Below, one piece after another: positions 48,247 through 61,754 of a DNA stretch of 64,000 nt; position 1 is the stretch's first letter; the number at the start of each line of letters is the position of its first letter. The notes under the pieces are model-generated. The model was given only the letters and a program-made list of their open reading frames with translations. It did no database searches and was not told the DNA's origin. Position numbers and translations under genes: made by a program. The stretch comes from Torpedo marmorata (taxonomy: Eukaryota). The stretch covers positions 69,130,001-69,194,000 of the forward strand of contig OZ360243.1 in the NCBI GenBank assembly GCA_977017645.1. Direction: 5' to 3'.

Positions 48247-49292
48247 TTCTACAGCAAGGCACTGGCTAACCAAGCTAGTCCCCTTTGCCTGCATTTAGTC
48301 CATATGCTTCTCAACCTTTCCTCTCCTTGTATCTGTCCATGACTTTTAAACATTGTATTTGTGCCCCCCCTCTACCCCTTCCCTCGGCAGCTCGTTCCAC
48401 ACCCCCACCTCCCTCTGTGTGAAGAAGGAGCCCCTCAGGTCCCTTTTAAATTTTGCCACTCTCTCTTTAAAGCTATGTGCTCTGGTTTTAGATTCGCCTA
48501 TCATGGGGAAAAGGCCGTGACTATTTACCTTCTCTGTGTGCCTCATGATTTTACAAACCTCTATCGGGTCTCCACTCAGCCTCCGACCCGCCAGAGAAAA
48601 CAACCCAAGTTTGGGTTGCACTATCTGTAAGGAGTTTGTACGTTCTCCCCATGTCTGCGTGGGTTTCCTCCGGGGGCTCCGGTTTCCTCCCACCGTTCGA
48701 AACGTACCGGGGGTTGTCGGTCAATTGGGTGTAATTGGGCGGCACACGCTAGTGGGCCGAAATGGCCTGTTACTGTGCTGTATGTCTAAATTTAAAATTT
48801 TAATTTGTCCAATCCTCTAATCCAGGCAACATCCTAGTAAACCTCTTCTATCCTTTTCCAAATCCTCCACGTCCTTCCTCAAAGGTTCCTTTTATTGTCA
48901 TGTAATAATACATTAAAAATGTAATGTACATGATGTATTTCAACTTTTGTCTGTCGTAAGGCAAACAAAGAATTGCCATGAGCATGGCCTGGTGCCCCTA
49001 ACAATAGGGGCGAGGCGAGATATCTTCCTCGAATCATTTAAAGTGCAACTCTCTGTAGATGTTAAAAAATCCAAAACGATTACCATTTACTGTCATGCAT
49101 GGATGCTGCCTGATCTTCTGAGTTCCTTCAGCATTTTGTGTGTTGCTGAAAAAATAATGCCCCTCTGTTTTAGTGGTTGATAGTAAGATTCTGAGATTTC
49201 TTGCCCTCTTTCCCCACTAGGAACCAAATGATTAGTTTTCTGCAGCATTACCACAGTGCTGTGAATGGATCACAGGGTTTCAGAGTGGATCA

Positions 49293-52029
49293 AAAAGTAA
49301 AACATGAAAATCTGTGGACACCGTGGTTGAAGTAAAAAACACAAATGCTGGAGAAACTCAGCAGGTCAAACAGTGTCTTTTATGTAGCAAAGGTAGAAAT
49401 ACATAACCGACGTTTCGGGCTTGAGCCCTTCATCAAAGTATGAGAAAATGCCGGTAGGCGTCCGAACAAAAGAGTGAGGGGGGAAGGGGGATGGCAAAGG
49501 CAGGAGATGATAGGTGGAGAAAGGAGGGAGGGGACAGCAGCAAAGAGGGGGAGGAGGAATGGCTAGGTAGCTGGAGAAAAACAGGAAGGACGGGTGAGGG
49601 GGGAGGGGAAGGGAACGACAAGCAGGTTTAGTGGAAAGCAGAAAAGTCAATGTTTTTTAAAAATATTTTATTTAAAATTTTTAAATCACAAAATACATAA
49701 AATGGAATATAAAATTATCAAATTCTTTGTGATACAATTTCACCCCCCCTCCCTCCCTCCCCTCCCCAACCCTCCCAACCCCACTAATCTAATAAAAAAT
49801 AAAAATAGAAAAAATAAAAATAGAAAAAGAAGAAAAAAAAGAAAGAAAAAGATAGAGTAAGGGGAATGCCAATCTATAAACTAATTCTATTATGGAGGTC
49901 AAGTATGCCAGCAGATCCGATATCTAGAGATCTTCAAATCCTTAAACCAACAGCTTTCATATATGGGCTCCAAATTTTTAAAAATAAATGATATTTATTA
50001 CGTAAATTATAAGTAATTTTTTCAAGTGGTATACATGAACGAAGTTCTGCATGCCATCTTTCTAATCCTAAATCTAAATCAGATTTCCAAGTAATAGCAA
50101 TGCACTTCTTTGAAACAGCTAAAGCAATTCGCAAAAATTCTATCTGATACATATTTAGTTTCATCTTAATACTAAATTTTCTAATATCTCCAAACAAAAA
50201 TATCATAGGATCCATTGGAAATGTAATCTTAAATACTTTATCTAAAAAAATTTTAACTTTCAACCAAAAATCATAAACTTTTGGACAAAACCATGTACAA
50301 TGTACAAAAGACCCTTCCTCTTTATTATATCTAAAACATAAATCTGATAATGTCGGATTAAATTTCTTTAATTTTTTAGGTGTTAAATATAATTGATGAA
50401 AAAAATTATATTGTACTAGTCTATATCTAACATTAATAATCTTCGTCATACTTAATTTACATAATTCTTTCCAATGATTTTCATCTATTCTTACATTCAA
50501 ATCTAATTCCCATTTTAATCTTGATTTATGCAAACCTACTTTAGGCATTTTCCTCTGAAACAATTTATACATTTGAGAAATAAATTTATTAATATCTCCT
50601 TTAGTAACTATTAATTCTAATTCATTTTGTCTTGGTAAAATCAAAGCATAACCTAATTTTTCAATCAGAAAAGCTCTAATTTGATAATAAGCAAAAAGTG
50701 TATTATCTAATATATTAAATTTATCTTTCATTCTTTGAAACGTAATAAATTTCCCAGCTTCAAAACAATCACTAATCTTCTTAATTCCTTTTTGAAACCA
50801 AATTTTAAATAATTGATTATTAAGAGTAAATGGAATAAGTCCATTTTGATATAAAGGCATCCTTGGAGAAATCAATCCTTTTCCTCCTATTTCCTTATCC
50901 GTCTTATTCCATATTTCTAACAAATGTTTAAAAATAGGCGAATTTTTCTTTCTTGTTGATATTAATTTAGAATCCCATTTATAAATAATTTCTTCTTTAG
51001 AGTCATCACCTATATTATTTAATTCTATTTTAATCTAAGCAGGAGATTTAGTTGAGTCAAAAAATTCATTAACAAATTTTAATTGAGCTGCTTTATAATA
51101 ATTTTGAAAATTAGGAAGTTGCAAACCACCCATTTCATAATTCCAAGTTAATTTTTCTATACCTACTCTTGCTAACTTTCCTTTCCATAAAAATTTCCTA
51201 ATAATTGAATTTAAATCCTTAAAAATTTTTTGAGGAATTCCATAAGGAATTGATTGAAAAAGATATTGAATTCTTGGAAAAATATTCATTTTAATACAAT
51301 TTACTCTTCCCAATAAAGTTATAGGTAAATCTTTCCAATTTTCTAAATCTTTCTTTATTTTCACGAATAATGGTTAGAAAAGTCAATGTTAATGCCATCT
51401 GGCTGGAGAGTGCCGAGACGGAATATGAGATGTTGTTCCTCCAATTTGCGGGTAGTCTGGGTGGGATAGTACATGAGTCCATGGACAGACATGTGAGTGG
51501 GGGAGTGTGACCCGGAATTGAAATGGTTGGCTACTGGGAGGTCGCTGTTGTTGCGGACGGAGAGGAGGTGCTCAGCAAAGCGGTCTCCCAATCTACGACC
51601 GGTCTCTCCAATGTAGAGAAAGCCACAAAGGGAGCACCGGATGCAGTAAATAAGTTCTCTGGATGTGCAAGTGAAGTGTAGTTTCACTTGGAAGGCCTGT
51701 TTGGGGCCCTGGACCGTGGTGAGGGGGGAGGTGTGGGCGCAGGTGTTGCACCTCCTGCGGGCACAGGGGAAGGTTCCGGGGGTGCGATGGGTGGGGAGGG
51801 ATGAGTGCACGAGTGAATCGCGGAGGGAGTGGTCCCTACGGAACGCCGAGAGGGGAGGAGAAGGAAAAATGTGTCTGGTGGTGGGATCCTGTAGTAAGTG
51901 CCGGAAATTCCGGCGGATAATGTGTTGGATGCGGAGGCTGGTGGGGTGGTAGGTGAGGATGAGGGGGATTCTATGTTTGTTACATAAAAGACACTGTTTG
52001 ACCTGCTGAGTTTCTCCAGCATTTGTGTT
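49293..52029 (-). mobile_element. Penelope-like element with an inverted partial pLTR at its 5' junction and 15-bp TSD; contains a nested L1
   Basis: GIY-YIG ORF at 51361-51810. Inverted pLTR piece at 51981-52029. TSD tttcagagtggatca at 49278-49292 and 52030-52044. Confidence 0.9.
49655..51375 (-). mobile_element. AT-rich 5'-truncated L1-clade LINE with 15-bp TSD
   Basis: GRVNCIKMNIFPRIQYLFQ and PLEKITYNLRNKY. TSD agaaaagtcaatgtt at 49640-49654 and 51376-51390. Confidence 0.92.
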
Positions 52030-52432
52030 TTTCAGAGTGGATCAGTTCAGCAAACTACTGCAGGAACTCAGCAGGACAAGCAGCGTCTGCGGAGGCAGAG
52101 GAATGGTCGGTGTGGGTGGGAGAGAGCCAGTATAAAGAGGTGATGGGGAGGGGTGAGGCAGGGGCCAGGAGTGATAGGTGGAACCCTCTCCTCTGGATCC
52201 ACCTATCAGCTACCAGCTCCTGCCCCACCACTCTCTCTCCTCTTCATACTGGCTATCTCTTCTCCATACTCTATCCTGATGCAGAGTCTCGACCCTAAAC
52301 ATCGCCCATCTCTCTGCCTCCACAGATGCTGCTCAACCCGCTGAGTTCCTCCAGCACTTTGTGTTTTGCTGCAGATTCCAGACTCCGGTGTGTGCACAGA
52401 ATCAGCGCCTTGTTTGTGAAATCCCTTTAGAC

Positions 52433-53469
<1,037 letters not shown>

Positions 53470-54290: not shown

Positions 54291-54583
54291 GAGTGTGATG
54301 TCAGCACAGACTCGTTGGGCTGAAGGGACTGTGTCTGCGCTGCATCTCTCGAGGACATTTTGAAACAAAGTTGAATGACCTACTTCTAGTGGATGAGAGA
54401 AGTCAGGATTTCCAACCCAAGCTTTTCCTTATGTTCACTCTCAGACACCTGACATGCCCTGACCAGTCGTAGCCCCCTCCACGTTGACCCAATGGCCAAG
54501 TCAGTGCCCCAGCACCTTTACTTGCTCAGAGAAGATTTACTGGGATGTTGCTGGGACTTGAGGAACTGAGTTATAGGGAAAGG

Positions 54584-54802
54584 CTGGAGGAACTCAGCAT
54601 ATCTCGCAGCGTCCATAGCAGGTGAAGATATATAACCGACGTTTCGGGCCTGAGCCCTTTTTCAAGATAATGAAGAAGGGCTCAGGCCCAAAACGTCAAT
54701 AATATATCTTATCTCCTAAGGACGCTGCGAGACCGGCTGAGTTCCTCTAGCATTTCTGTGTTTTTACTACAATCACAGCATCTGCAGACTTTTGTGTTTC
54801 CC
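54584..54802. mobile_element. Inverted PLE pLTR pair with two hammerhead-like cores, inserted in a CR1 fragment (54520-55235)
   Basis: gacgtttcgggcctgagccctttttcaa / tgaagaagggctcaggcccaaaacgtc. Near-TSD tatagggaaagg / tacagggaaagg. Confidence 0.85.
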
Positions 54803-55504
54803 TACAGGGAAAGGTTAAACAGGTTAGGACTTTATTCCCTAGAGCGTAGAAGAATGAGGGGAGATTTGATAGAGGTATTTAAAATTACAATGGGGATAGA
54901 CAGAGTAAATGTAATAGGCTTTTTCCACTGAGGGTAGGTGAGATACAAACAGAGGACATGGGTTAAGGGTGAAAGGGGAAAAGTTCAGGGGGAACATGAG
55001 GGGGAACTTCTTCACACAGAGAGTGGTGGGAGTGTGGAACGATCTGCTAGCTGAAGTGGTGAATGCGGGCTCAATTTTAACATTTAAGAAATTTGGACAG
55101 GTACATTGATGGGAGAGATATGAAGGGCTATGGACTGGGTGCAGGTCAGTGGGACGAGGCAAAATAATAGTTCGGCACAGACTAGAAGGGCCGAAGGGGC
55201 CTGTTTCTGTGCTGCAATGTTCGAATGTTCTAATTCTGAGTAAGTTTGGCATGTCACCTGCATCTCTTAACGGCTTCTGCAGGGGCACCATTGAAAGCAT
55301 CCTGCCAGGGTGCTAAACACAATCTGCTGGAGGAACTCAGCGGGTCGAGCTGCATCCGTGGGAGAGAAAGAGCGGTTGATGTTTTGAGCTGAATGTCTTT
55401 ATCAAGACTGAGAAAATGCTGTATAGAAGCCCATGTCAAGAGGGCAGGGTGGGAGGGGTGGAGCAGTGGCCCCGTGTGGGACTGGGCAGGGGTGGGATTG
55501 GATG

Positions 55505-57485: not shown

Positions 57486-57606
57486 CTTTAACAGCACCAA
57501 TAGCCTGAATACGACTGGGAATGTCTGATCTCAGAAGCTAAGCAGGCACAGGACTGGTCAGTACTTGGAGGGGAGACCGCCAAGGAACACCAGGTGCTGT
57601 AGGTTT
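57486..57606 (+). pseudogene. 5S rRNA-derived sequence (5S pseudogene or SINE3 head)
   Basis: gtctgatctcagaagctaagcagg...ctggtcagtacttggagggagaccgcc-like...ggtgctgtaggttt resembles vertebrate 5S rRNA, including the internal promoter region. The 5' end is diverged. Confidence 0.85.
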
Positions 57607-58105: not shown

Positions 58106-59311
58106 TTGAAGACACAACGTTCACTGATTGGAGGTAGATCTATACATTGTACAGAGACACAAGGAACTGGAGGTACTGGAATCTGGAGCAACAAACCATC
58201 TGCTGGAGGAACTCAGCGGGTTGAGCAGCATCAGTGGAAGAAAAAGATTTGTCCACGTTTTAGGTCCTGGGTTCTGACCCAAAATATTGACCATTACTTT
58301 TCTCCCACAGATGCTGCTCGATCGACGAGTTCCTCCAGCAGTTTGTGTTTTGCTCTAAATATTGTGTCCTGAGTAAAGATACTGTTGGGTACCTGATCTC
58401 ACTGACTGACAGAGCAGGGAGAATGGCAAAAATCACCCCCTCCTGTCCCTTTGTAACTCACTAACTGTTTATTTCCTATCTGTTACAGAGTCACATAGAT
58501 ACAGCCCTCTAAATCTGCACCAACCACCAATTCACACCAACCCCACATTAATCCCAAGTATTACTCCCCCCAAATTTTCATCAACATCCCCCTCCCACAG
58601 ATTTTACCAATTAATGACACGCTTTTTATGAATAAAATTGACGAAGGCAGATGTGGTACACAGGGACGTTTGCAATCTCTAGATAAGGTGCTGCACCGTC
58701 AGCTGGAGCAGGGAGTTGGGGCACGTGAGGTCGAAGGTGTTTTGGCAAACTGGGTCCAAAACTGATGGTGTTATGAGGCGGAGGGTTGCTTTTGTAACCA
58801 GAAGTCCGTAACCAGTGGGGCGCTGCAGGGGTTGGTGTTTGTTGTTTGTCAGAGATACATAAGTGACTTGGATATGAACGTCTCTGATCTGATAAGTAAG
58901 TGCGTTGACACGGATTGGTGGAATTGTAGATAGCAGGGATGGTTGTCCAAGGATATAGGACAGAGATCAACTGAAAAGTTGAGTGGAGTAGTGGCAGATG
59001 AAATTTAATCCTGAACACTGAAGGACCCTTCGCACCCTGGACACATCCTCTTCTCCCTCCACCCATCGGGGAGAAGGCTCCAGAGTGTGAAATCACGCAG
59101 CAACTGGCTTAAAGGCAGCTAAACACACCCTGCCGGAGCATCTCAGCAGGTCAAGAGGCATCAGTGGGAGAAAAAGAATGGTTGATATTTCGAGCAGAAA
59201 CCTTTTATTGAGATTTTATCACAATAGTCTTATTGTGCTCTTCTTTACATGGCTGTATGAATGTTAGAACTAACCTGTTAGACTGCTCACAGAAGAACCC
59301 TTCTCACTGTA

Positions 59312-60380: not shown

Positions 60381-61456
60381 ACTAATGGCACTTTACAATG
60401 GCCAATCAACCTCCCAACCTGTACGCCTTTCAGATGTGGGAGGAAACCGGAGAACCCCGGGGGAAAGCCACATGGTCTCAGGGAGAACATGCAAACTCCA
60501 CAAGGGCAGCATCAGGATTGAACCCGGGTATCTGGTGCTATGACAGAGCAGTTCTACCTGCTGCGTCACTGAGCCGCCCCTAAATAACGGAGAACAGTCG
60601 ATGTCGGAGGAAACTTTCATCAGCCCTCGTCCTTTCTTACAGACGAAGGAGATCGGAGTAACCACTGACACTGATACTGTGTGCGGCAGACAAGGAGAAA
60701 AATATCTGTATACAGAACAGGCATTAAAACAAAATCACACTAAAGTAAATACAAGACTCATATTATATTAAAGTGAACTTGGTTGTCTTCTGTGAAGTGA
60801 CATTGTTTGTGTCAGACTGCTCAACTGCAGGAGGTATTAAGCCCTGAAACTGCAGGTCCTCCCAGCCGAGACATTACAAAAACACAGTAAATAAAATATC
60901 TGGGACGTCCTGTCAGTTATAAGGGGTAGTGCACAGAATTAATAACAGAGAAACCTTGCAGGCCAGTCTGTTCCGATAATTCATATGTGAGCAGCATGAA
61001 GAACAGTTTCCTGAGGATCAACATGACAAAATTCTTTCTAAACAGGTCAGTGAAAAAGGCAGGGCAGAAACCAATACTACTTGACATTTTGCCAAATTAA
61101 GAACTGCACTTAAAGACCATGGTCTCTCAGGACTCTGGGAGAGAAAGAGAGCAGGGTTTTAAAACTAGGGCCCTTGTTCGGTAAAGAGCTTAAGTCATGG
61201 TGTTGTTTAGTGAGGCAAGTTAATTTCTGCAAATCAGTTGTGACAGAGTGCCCAGACTGATGTACACTGGGCTACAGTTGTTCTGACTACACACCTCATC
61301 CATTCCTTAATAACATTTCATTTCAGTTTTAAAATAGAAAACTGCTCTTCAGTTACTTTGGTCTTCAAGGCAATTCCAAGACACTGGGGGTAAGATCTGC
61401 ACCGATGTGTCTGTTCACGTGTAGGAGGTGCAACTGAATGTATGAATGAGGCCAGT

Positions 61457-61744
61457 AAAACACAAAGCTGGAGAAACTCAGCAGGTCAAACAGTGTACTT
61501 TATACAGCAAAGATAAAGATACATAACCAACGTTTCAGGCTTGAGCCCTTCATCAAGGTATGAACAAAATGTAGGCAGGTGCCCAAATCACCTTGATCAT
61601 AACTTGATGAAGGGCTCAAGCCTGAAATGTTGGTTATGTATTTTTACCTTTGCTACACAAAGTACACTGTTTGACCTGCTGAGTTTCTCCAGCATTGTGT
61701 TTTTACTTCAATCATAGTGTCTGCAGACTTTTGTGTTTTACTCA
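61457..61744. mobile_element. Inverted PLE pLTR pair with two hammerhead-like cores
   Basis: Arms ~61457-61557 (-) and ~61603-61744 (+). Flanking duplication tatgaatgag at 61441-61450 and 61745-61754. Confidence 0.88.
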
Positions 61745-61754
61745 TATGAATGAG

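What the first reader, a model, noticed from the sequence alone, without database searches (positions are those of the whole stretch)
54584..54802. Recurrent short TSD-flanked inverted pLTR hairpin insertions joined at the ribozyme
Seen: at least five independent ~150-350 bp insertions made of two PLE terminal fragments pointing outward (23463-24008 minus its MITE, 52055-52385, 54584-54802, 58190-58355, 61457-61744). In most the junction lies at or just upstream of the hammerhead core, and two have visible target duplications. None has coding sequence. Established: PLE insertions often carry an inverted 5'-truncated terminal repeat. Inference: these are either minimal products of PLE integration primed at both target nicks, or a non-autonomous retrozyme-like hairpin family. 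Transcribed in either direction, each would pair a ribozyme with its own antisense copy.
Basis: partly seen in the sequence, partly recalled or inferred. Interest (0 to 1): 0.7.

Follow-up and report, generated by a model that had tools for sequence, protein, structure and literature searches.

The report
Head-to-head Penelope stubs built per insertion
These short DNA hairpins are real but are dead, stub-sized insertions of a known jumping gene (a Penelope-like retrotransposon), likely built afresh at each landing from two separately started copies, and their inner ends track a predicted RNA start upstream of the ribozyme rather than the ribozyme's cut site.

Summary
Real, abundant, mostly known. 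54584-54802 is one insertion of two head-to-head Penelope-like (PLE) ends inside a LINE, with a 12-bp target duplication confirmed by 15 empty paralogous sites. Genome-wide, 3,034 head-to-head against 190 tail-to-tail pairs. In 84 of 88 pairs exactly one arm carries the ~35-nt PLE tail, never both. Junctions are nearly all unique. One recurring seam is a passenger in a hAT-like MITE; another forms no clade. So this is no self-spreading retrozyme family. Inner ends are not enriched at the GUC cut (8 of 176 arms, 8.6 expected). They stop at a wall 5-8 nt upstream of the hammerhead core, and the wall moves 9 nt in a subfamily whose initiator-like motif moves while the ribozyme does not (Fisher P=2e-5). 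Best reading: both target nicks prime cDNA, one at each internal start site, often running off the RNA 5' end, and the two are joined. Inverted pLTR, tail and TSD are published; this scan noted the same on other DNA many times (166 notes).

The parts
54572..54583 (.). left copy of 12-bp target-site duplication
   Evidence: single copy in 15 empty paralogous LINE sites
54584..54669 (-). inverted short-ended arm of family A1 PLE terminus (about +55 to -32 relative to the hammerhead cut)
54638..54665 (-). minimal hammerhead core of left arm, U3 type, G8 changed to A
   Evidence: alignment; core numbering from established knowledge
54670..54670 (.). junction, one extra base
54671..54802 (+). sense arm of family A1 PLE terminus (-27 to about +106), carries the tail
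54671..54697 (+). minimal hammerhead core of right arm, lacks position 3, G12 changed to A
54768..54802 (+). ~35-nt one-sided PLE tail
   Evidence: short ends peak at +70 to +72, tail ends at +105 to +109
54803..54814 (.). right copy of target-site duplication
54534..54890 (+). host LINE fragment (CR1-like, label recalled) interrupted by the insertion; extends further on both sides
   Evidence: frame continues across the empty site, 15 paralogues
23464..24008 (.). family A1 head-to-head pair (short arm left, tail arm right; -42/-3) interrupted by a TA-flanked MITE at 23585-23908; TSD 23449-23459 and 24009-24019
61457..61742 (.). family B-like head-to-head pair (-58/-35, 9 nt between); TSD 61441-61450 and 61745-61754
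58154..58355 (.). older pair of a third PLE family, tail arm on the left, joint in helix II, weak TSD
   Evidence: boundaries read by eye
52047..52396 (.). degenerate pair of the third family, joint about 80 nt upstream of the core, no TSD seen
   Evidence: boundaries read by eye
49293..52031 (-). family B PLE with the same layout but a long arm: inverted short-ended arm, GIY-YIG coding piece, nested L1-like fragment, pLTR with tail; 13-bp TSD at 49280-49292 and 52032-52044

Best explanation
Each hairpin is a single, non-coding, dead insertion of two head-to-head ends of an endonuclease-bearing Penelope-like retrotransposon, likely made on the spot when both staggered target nicks prime reverse transcription, one at the short start site and one at the tail start site. 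Shown: one event (TSD outside both arms, mode 14-15 bp), one tail per pair, unique junctions, no excess of ends at the ribozyme cut, and a wall of inner ends that moves with an upstream initiator-like motif. Inferred: the enzyme (predicted dimer in the anole element) starts at the copy of the start sites near the RNA's 5' end, so both cDNAs are short and stop at or before that end; host end-joining then links their 3' ends, with trimming, a few extra bases or short microhomology. When one cDNA starts in the downstream pLTR instead, the same steps would give the published long element with an inverted pLTR, as at 49293-52031. That the wall is a transcription start is the weakest step (about 0.5).
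For: 3,034 against 190 orientation counts. TSD 20 of 36 against 2 of 108 controls and 48 of 64. Tails per pair: one in 84 of 88, none in 4, both in 0; 34/2/0 of 36 against 18/10/8 expected, P=8e-8; 21 of 47 copies in 600 kb of evenly spaced stretches carry the tail. Tail arms and short arms have the same inner-end distribution (KS P=0.93, n=84). End rate at -24 to -40 is 2.27 per 100 nt against 0.18-0.69 elsewhere in 90 tail-ascertained family A copies, and 1.88 against 0-0.20 in 30 family B copies. Of arms reaching -28, 23 of 27 end by -36 in A1, but 22 of 61 in A2, where 28 of 61 end at -37 to -46; the TCA motif sits at -35 in A1 and -44 in A2 while helix I and the core stay put (P=2e-5). 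Arms of one pair carry different multi-base variants in 3 of 39 A2 pairs. In vitro the anole PLE nicks and extends both strands and starts at two internal sites that bound the tail (PMC11167929).
Against: No RNA 5' end was measured. Of 25 mappable family B copies that contain the element head, only 3 start at -35 to -42 and 19 extend beyond -60 (5 of 30 had no anchor), so -33 is not the only RNA start, or cDNAs jump template. No consistent cap-derived G at wall junctions (read by eye). A U-rich tract lies just upstream of the motif in A1, B and some A2 copies and could equally cause drop-off. One tail/tail pair among 30 shared-seam copies and one tailed partner among 25 (a compound insertion). 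Copies are old (arms differ by 12-15%), so end calls are good to a few bases only, and A2 ends needed a reference variant. Pair samples were limited to 300 nt spacing and to the first places listed on contigs C1, C2, C5 and C11.
Confidence: 0.7

Rival explanations
1. One cDNA folds back (self-priming or template switch onto itself) and its copy forms the second arm, as proposed for palindromic junctions of Adineta Penelope elements.
For: Proposed in PMC3846280 (passage). Arms of a pair are more alike than arms of different pairs (0.81 against 0.76, P=0.005) and share the A2 sub-variant in 36 of 39 pairs.
Against: Both outer ends sit at fixed sites matching two start sites; either arm can be the longer one (both polarities); 22 of 36 joints hold 2 or more extra bases; 3 of 39 pairs join different sub-variants.
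Confidence: 0.15
2. Same two-nick mechanism, but the wall is a reverse-transcriptase drop-off site (weak rU:dA hybrid at the upstream U tract, or bound protein), not the RNA's 5' end.
For: 19 of 25 head-containing copies pass the wall; the U-rich tract moves with the TCA motif; no cap-G signal seen.
Against: A1 ends stop at -33 to -36, before the U tract at about -39 to -43; an initiator-like motif lies at the wall in A1, A2 and B; the Drosophila Penelope transcript starts inside the upstream pLTR (PMC2377424).
Confidence: 0.3
3. A non-autonomous, retrozyme-like hairpin family that is transcribed and re-inserted as a unit.
For: Two seams recur: 347 exact matches of a 19-mer and 33 of a 22-mer close to the focal seam. 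A hairpin RNA could in principle be re-copied with either polarity, so polarity alone does not exclude this.
Against: 28 of 30 copies of the first seam share flanks; 27 show a terminal inverted repeat and 7 of 7 with both ends have 8-bp TSDs, so a hAT-like MITE carries them. The 30 examined copies of the second seam have unrelated flanks, both polarities (19 and 8), no fixed private change and are no closer to each other (0.167) than to other pairs (0.153), whereas the MITE passengers show 4-5 near-fixed private changes per arm and distance 0.075. No tandem units; cores are U3-G8 in 223 of 240.
Confidence: 0.05
4. Chance neighbours or later insertion of one copy into another.
For: PLE ends are dense: 48 in 600 kb, 21 in the window; a few loci are compound (L100, L116).
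Against: 16-fold orientation bias, spanning TSDs and the one-tail rule.
Confidence: 0.01

Closest known systems
Endonuclease-positive PLE insertions with inverted pLTR, one-sided tail and TSD (Adineta Pen2a/Pen3a, PMC3846280 passages; PMC8557442 Fig. 2 legend and passages; Drosophila virilis Penelope, PMC2377424)
   Same: Head-to-head inverted 5'-truncated end, 30-40-nt tail on one end only, TSD outside the whole unit, minimal hammerhead in the pLTR.
   Different: Both arms are so short that no coding sequence is left; TSD mode is 14-15 bp rather than 8-10; the one-tail rule and the wall of inner ends are counted here.
Anolis Poseidon (PAc) in vitro mechanism (PMC11167929, parts 1-2 of 4 read)
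   Same: Two internal start sites bounding the tail; both strands nicked and extended; ribozyme cleavage not needed and no RNA ends at the cut site.
   Different: In the parts read, the paper does not link the two sites to the two arms of inverted insertions. The elements here carry the CX4CxxC linker of Neptune/Nematis type, and the family B ORF appears to start after the tail.
Minimal hammerheads of metazoan PLEs (PMC4209133, parts 1-2 of 4 read)
   Same: Type I minimal core, bulge before helix II, no stable helix III; that paper already notes dual minimal hammerheads 100-700 bp apart on opposite strands in Schistosoma.
   Different: Families A and B have U3 with G8 (223 of 240 cores); the paper lists C3-G8 and U3-A8.
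Non-LTR retrozymes (PMC7229834 passages; bioRxiv 10.64898/2026.07.22.740005 part 1 of 5)
   Same: Small, non-coding, PLE-related, hammerhead-bearing.
   Different: Retrozymes are head-to-tail tandem repeats with canonical active ribozymes that make circular RNA; these are inverted dimers with unique seams and decayed cores.

Membership tests
EN+ Penelope-like element insertion | Terminus contiguous with a GIY-YIG endonuclease with internal cysteines | tested here: met
   Family B end is contiguous with a GIY-YIG piece (Pfam E=0.0017, below the curated cut-off) showing LIY-CxxC-YIG and a CX4CxxC linker; family A upstream sequence is homologous to it.
EN+ Penelope-like element insertion | Reverse transcriptase upstream of the endonuclease | tested here: inconclusive
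   RVT_1 E=0.013, below cut-off, with a YIDD motif in L148; no tree made; family A RT not examined.
EN+ Penelope-like element insertion | Partial tandem: terminus continues into the head of the next unit | tested here: met
   L150, L156 and 760 exact head-junction matches in family B.
EN+ Penelope-like element insertion | Inverted 5'-truncated copy, 30-40-nt tail at one end, TSD | tested here: met
EN+ Penelope-like element insertion | Minimal hammerhead motif in the pLTR | tested here: met
   Core, helix II and a bulged helix I whose letters co-vary between A1, A2 and B (read by eye); Rfam has no match; activity untested.
Non-LTR retrozyme | Head-to-tail tandem units, each with a complete hammerhead | tested here: not met
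   Inverted dimers; 0 direct neighbours within 1 kb among 48 ends in 600 kb.
Non-LTR retrozyme | Amplification of a fixed unit as a family | tested here: not met
   Unique seams; recurring seams explained by a MITE carrier or lacking a clade. Only family A tested.
Non-LTR retrozyme | Self-cleavage and circular RNA | not testable with these tools
   Needs bench assay or raw small/circular RNA reads; only assembled contigs of guessed type were offered.
MITE (DNA transposon) | Identical terminal inverted repeats and fixed short TSD | tested here: not met
   Ends differ by the ~35-nt tail; TSDs range 9-18 bp.

The most novel reading that the evidence does not exclude
The stubs are fossil 'strong-stop' products of PLE transposition: a two-enzyme complex always uses the short start site on one target strand and the tail start site on the other, starting near the 5' end of a terminally redundant capped RNA, so tens of thousands of hairpins map the element's transcription start base by base and explain how PLEs make their inverted ends.
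Probability: 0.4. Interest if true: 0.6.

Novelty: new member of a known kind. Interest (0 to 1): 0.33.

Why it matters
How PLEs make their tandem and inverted ends is stated to be unresolved (PMC8557442, passages). The layout itself is published, so the hairpins are not a new element. Their value is as a large natural record (roughly 41,000 per genome, 95% range 11,000-106,000, from 4 pairs in 600 kb) that gives two sharp, testable rules for the existing in vitro system: one start site per target strand, and an inner wall that follows an upstream motif rather than the ribozyme.

Tried and rejected
Rfam scan: no hammerhead family, only 5S and generic hairpin hits. The 347-copy seam first looked like an amplified hairpin; shared flanks showed a MITE carrier. 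Junction at the ribozyme cut: no excess. TATA box 30 nt upstream: seen in A1, absent in B, dropped. Cap-derived G: no consistent signal. Splice-acceptor or branch-point stop at -33: the motif also fits yUnAy (recalled), but no pyrimidine tract follows; not pursued. Inverted partners being rarer on long arms: 20 of 46 short against 2 of 23 long at a 250-nt cut-off (P=0.005), but 5 of 23 at 400 nt, so not claimed. The first query was biased to focal-like seams and was not used for counts. Microhomology length is undercounted by my split method (2 of 36 with 2 nt or more). The paper on PLE hammerhead variants (PMC5785218) is not held, so the activity of U3-G8 cores is left open. [quoted passage not shown] S2 of PMC11167929) were not seen and may bear on this.

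Full report
Observation. Self-comparison of the window finds all five inverted pairs. Each consists of two ends of a repeat with a minimal hammerhead-like core, pointing outward. I number positions from the hammerhead cut (C of GUC = -1; core begins at -28). The focal insertion has a minus-strand arm 54584-54669 (to -32), one extra base, and a plus-strand arm 54671-54802 (from -27) that carries 35 more bases at its outer end. A 12-bp duplication flanks both arms. The target occurs once in 15 paralogous empty sites of the host LINE, whose frame runs across the empty site. Two other pairs have clear TSDs, one a weak one, and 52047-52396 has none and is joined about 80 nt upstream of the core.

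What the repeat is. The window holds 21 such ends of several families. Family B ends are contiguous with a GIY-YIG piece (E=0.0017, below cut-off) with the internal cysteines and the CX4CxxC linker that PMC8557442 (passages) gives for Neptune/Nematis PLEs, with a YIDD reverse transcriptase piece further up (weak Pfam match), and they continue past the tail into the head of the next unit. The focal family A is homologous to B upstream of the ribozyme. At 49293-52031 a family B copy shows the published long form: inverted short-ended arm, coding piece, pLTR with tail, 13-bp TSD. The genome is 6.2 Gb; a cartilaginous fish is my recalled guess from the repeat types.

One event, not chance. Exact 16-mer patterns give 3,034 head-to-head against 190 tail-to-tail pairs at 30-300 nt. 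Of the first 50 head-to-head places, 36 are independent family A pairs, 5 are MITE passengers and 9 belong to other families and were left out of counts. TSDs are found in 20 of 36 against 2 of 108 flank-swapped controls and in 48 of 64 pairs of subfamily A2 (70 loci, 6 dropped as the same place on the other strand), mode 14-15 bp. Sixty evenly spaced 10-kb stretches hold 48 ends and 4 close pairs, about 41,000 per genome with wide error.

One tail per pair. In 88 non-redundant pairs (27 A1, 61 A2; 2 segmental duplicates and 1 repeat dropped, 4 A2 pairs of the first set not carried over) 84 have exactly one tailed arm, 4 none, 0 both, although 21 of 47 random copies are tailed. A one-sided tail is described in PMC3846280 and PMC8557442 (passages), and PMC11167929 (parts 1-2 of 4) shows that the tail lies between two internal start sites and that both strands are nicked and extended. 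The inference is one start site per target strand. Exceptions: one tail/tail pair in 30 and one compound locus (L146).

Shared or unique junctions. Junctions are unique in 36 of 36 and 62 of 64 pairs; the two repeats share 99-100 of 100 flank bases. A seam with 347 exact matches proved to be a passenger: 28 of 30 copies share flanks, 27 show the same terminal repeat, and 7 of 7 with both ends have 8-bp TSDs, as for hAT elements (label from established knowledge). A seam one base away from the focal one has 33 exact matches. The 30 examined have unrelated flanks, both polarities (19 and 8, plus 3 others), no fixed private change (the strongest is 11 of 25 against 5 of 52 at +60) and no closer kinship than other pairs, while the MITE passengers, as positive control, show near-fixed private changes. 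It is best read as a recurring 3-base microhomology between the wall motif and the start of the core. A self-spreading hairpin family is therefore not supported for family A; retrozymes as defined in PMC7229834 (passages) and the 2026 preprint (part 1 of 5) are head-to-tail tandems.

Where the inner ends lie. Only 8 of 176 arms end within 3 nt of the cut, 8.6 expected. In samples picked by the tail alone, the end rate at -24 to -40 is 2.27 per 100 nt against 0.18-0.69 elsewhere (90 family A copies) and 1.88 against 0-0.20 (30 family B copies); 14 of 22 paired and 9 of 68 unpaired family A copies end there. Subfamily A2 has about 9 more bases between a TCA initiator-like motif (consensus recalled) and the ribozyme. 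Its wall moves accordingly: 23 of 27 A1 arms that reach -28 end by -36, against 22 of 61 in A2, where 28 end at -37 to -46 (P=2e-5). So the wall follows upstream sequence, not the ribozyme fold. A transcription start is the simplest cause, and Drosophila Penelope does start in its upstream pLTR (PMC2377424, part 2 of 4 and passages). Against it: 19 of 25 mappable head-containing family B copies extend beyond -60 and only 3 start at the wall, no cap-derived G was evident, and a U tract that moves with the motif could cause drop-off instead.

One cDNA or two. Arms of a pair usually share sub-variants (36 of 39) but 3 of 39 differ by multi-base variants; tail and short arms end in the same distribution (P=0.93); 22 of 36 joints hold extra bases. 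This favours two cDNAs joined by repair over the self-priming proposed in PMC3846280, without excluding it.

Ribozyme. 223 of 240 intact-looking cores have U at position 3 opposite G8; PMC4209133 (parts 1-2 of 4) lists C3-G8 and U3-A8, reports low activity needing dimers, and already notes opposite-strand pairs 100-700 bp apart. The focal cores carry G8A and G12A, and a transcript would fold into one long hairpin of -125 to -128 kcal/mol that buries both. No usable RNA data were offered.

Verdict. A real and common fossil of a known layout, built per insertion. This scan has noted the same on other DNA of this and at least 20 other genomes, including the twin-priming and promoter readings; those notes are unchecked and were read after my own reading was recorded. 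Interest 0.33.

Noticed in passing
L236-L265 (e.g. L253), 347 exact seam matches genome-wide: A 1.1-1.5 kb hAT-like MITE (terminal inverted repeats, 8-bp TSDs in 7 of 7 complete copies) carries a family A hairpin about 100 nt from its left end and has spread it; several internal variants exist.
   Followed up: partly
window 23585-23908: MITE with 12-bp terminal inverted repeats flanked by TA (Tc1/mariner-like, label recalled) inserted into the hairpin's right arm.
   Followed up: partly
window 49293-52031 next to 52047-52396: A younger family B PLE landed within about 15 bases of an older hairpin of another PLE family; mixed-family neighbours also at L100 and L116, which may mean a preference for old PLE ends.
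   Followed up: no
families A and B, all loci: The hammerhead core has U3 opposite G8 in 223 of 240 cores, even in the young family B, while helix I co-varies between subfamilies; activity unknown.
   Followed up: partly
G000:C2:199274873, 199278714, 199282517: Three family B head junctions at a 3.8-kb period, suggesting a tandem array and the unit length of the element.
   Followed up: no
window 25230-26462 (minus): A PLE-type RT piece with a DKG motif is interrupted by a long tandem array of a roughly 45-nt unit.
   Followed up: no
L146: Internally deleted family B insertion: inverted tailed arm, head of the ORF, then a second pLTR with a short end, TSD outside; still one tail and one short outer end.
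   Followed up: partly
window 57487-57605: 5S rRNA-derived piece above the Rfam gathering score; similar 5S heads in L135 suggest a SINE.
   Followed up: no
window 52606-52666: A separate 29-bp-arm palindrome unrelated to the PLE ends.
   Followed up: no
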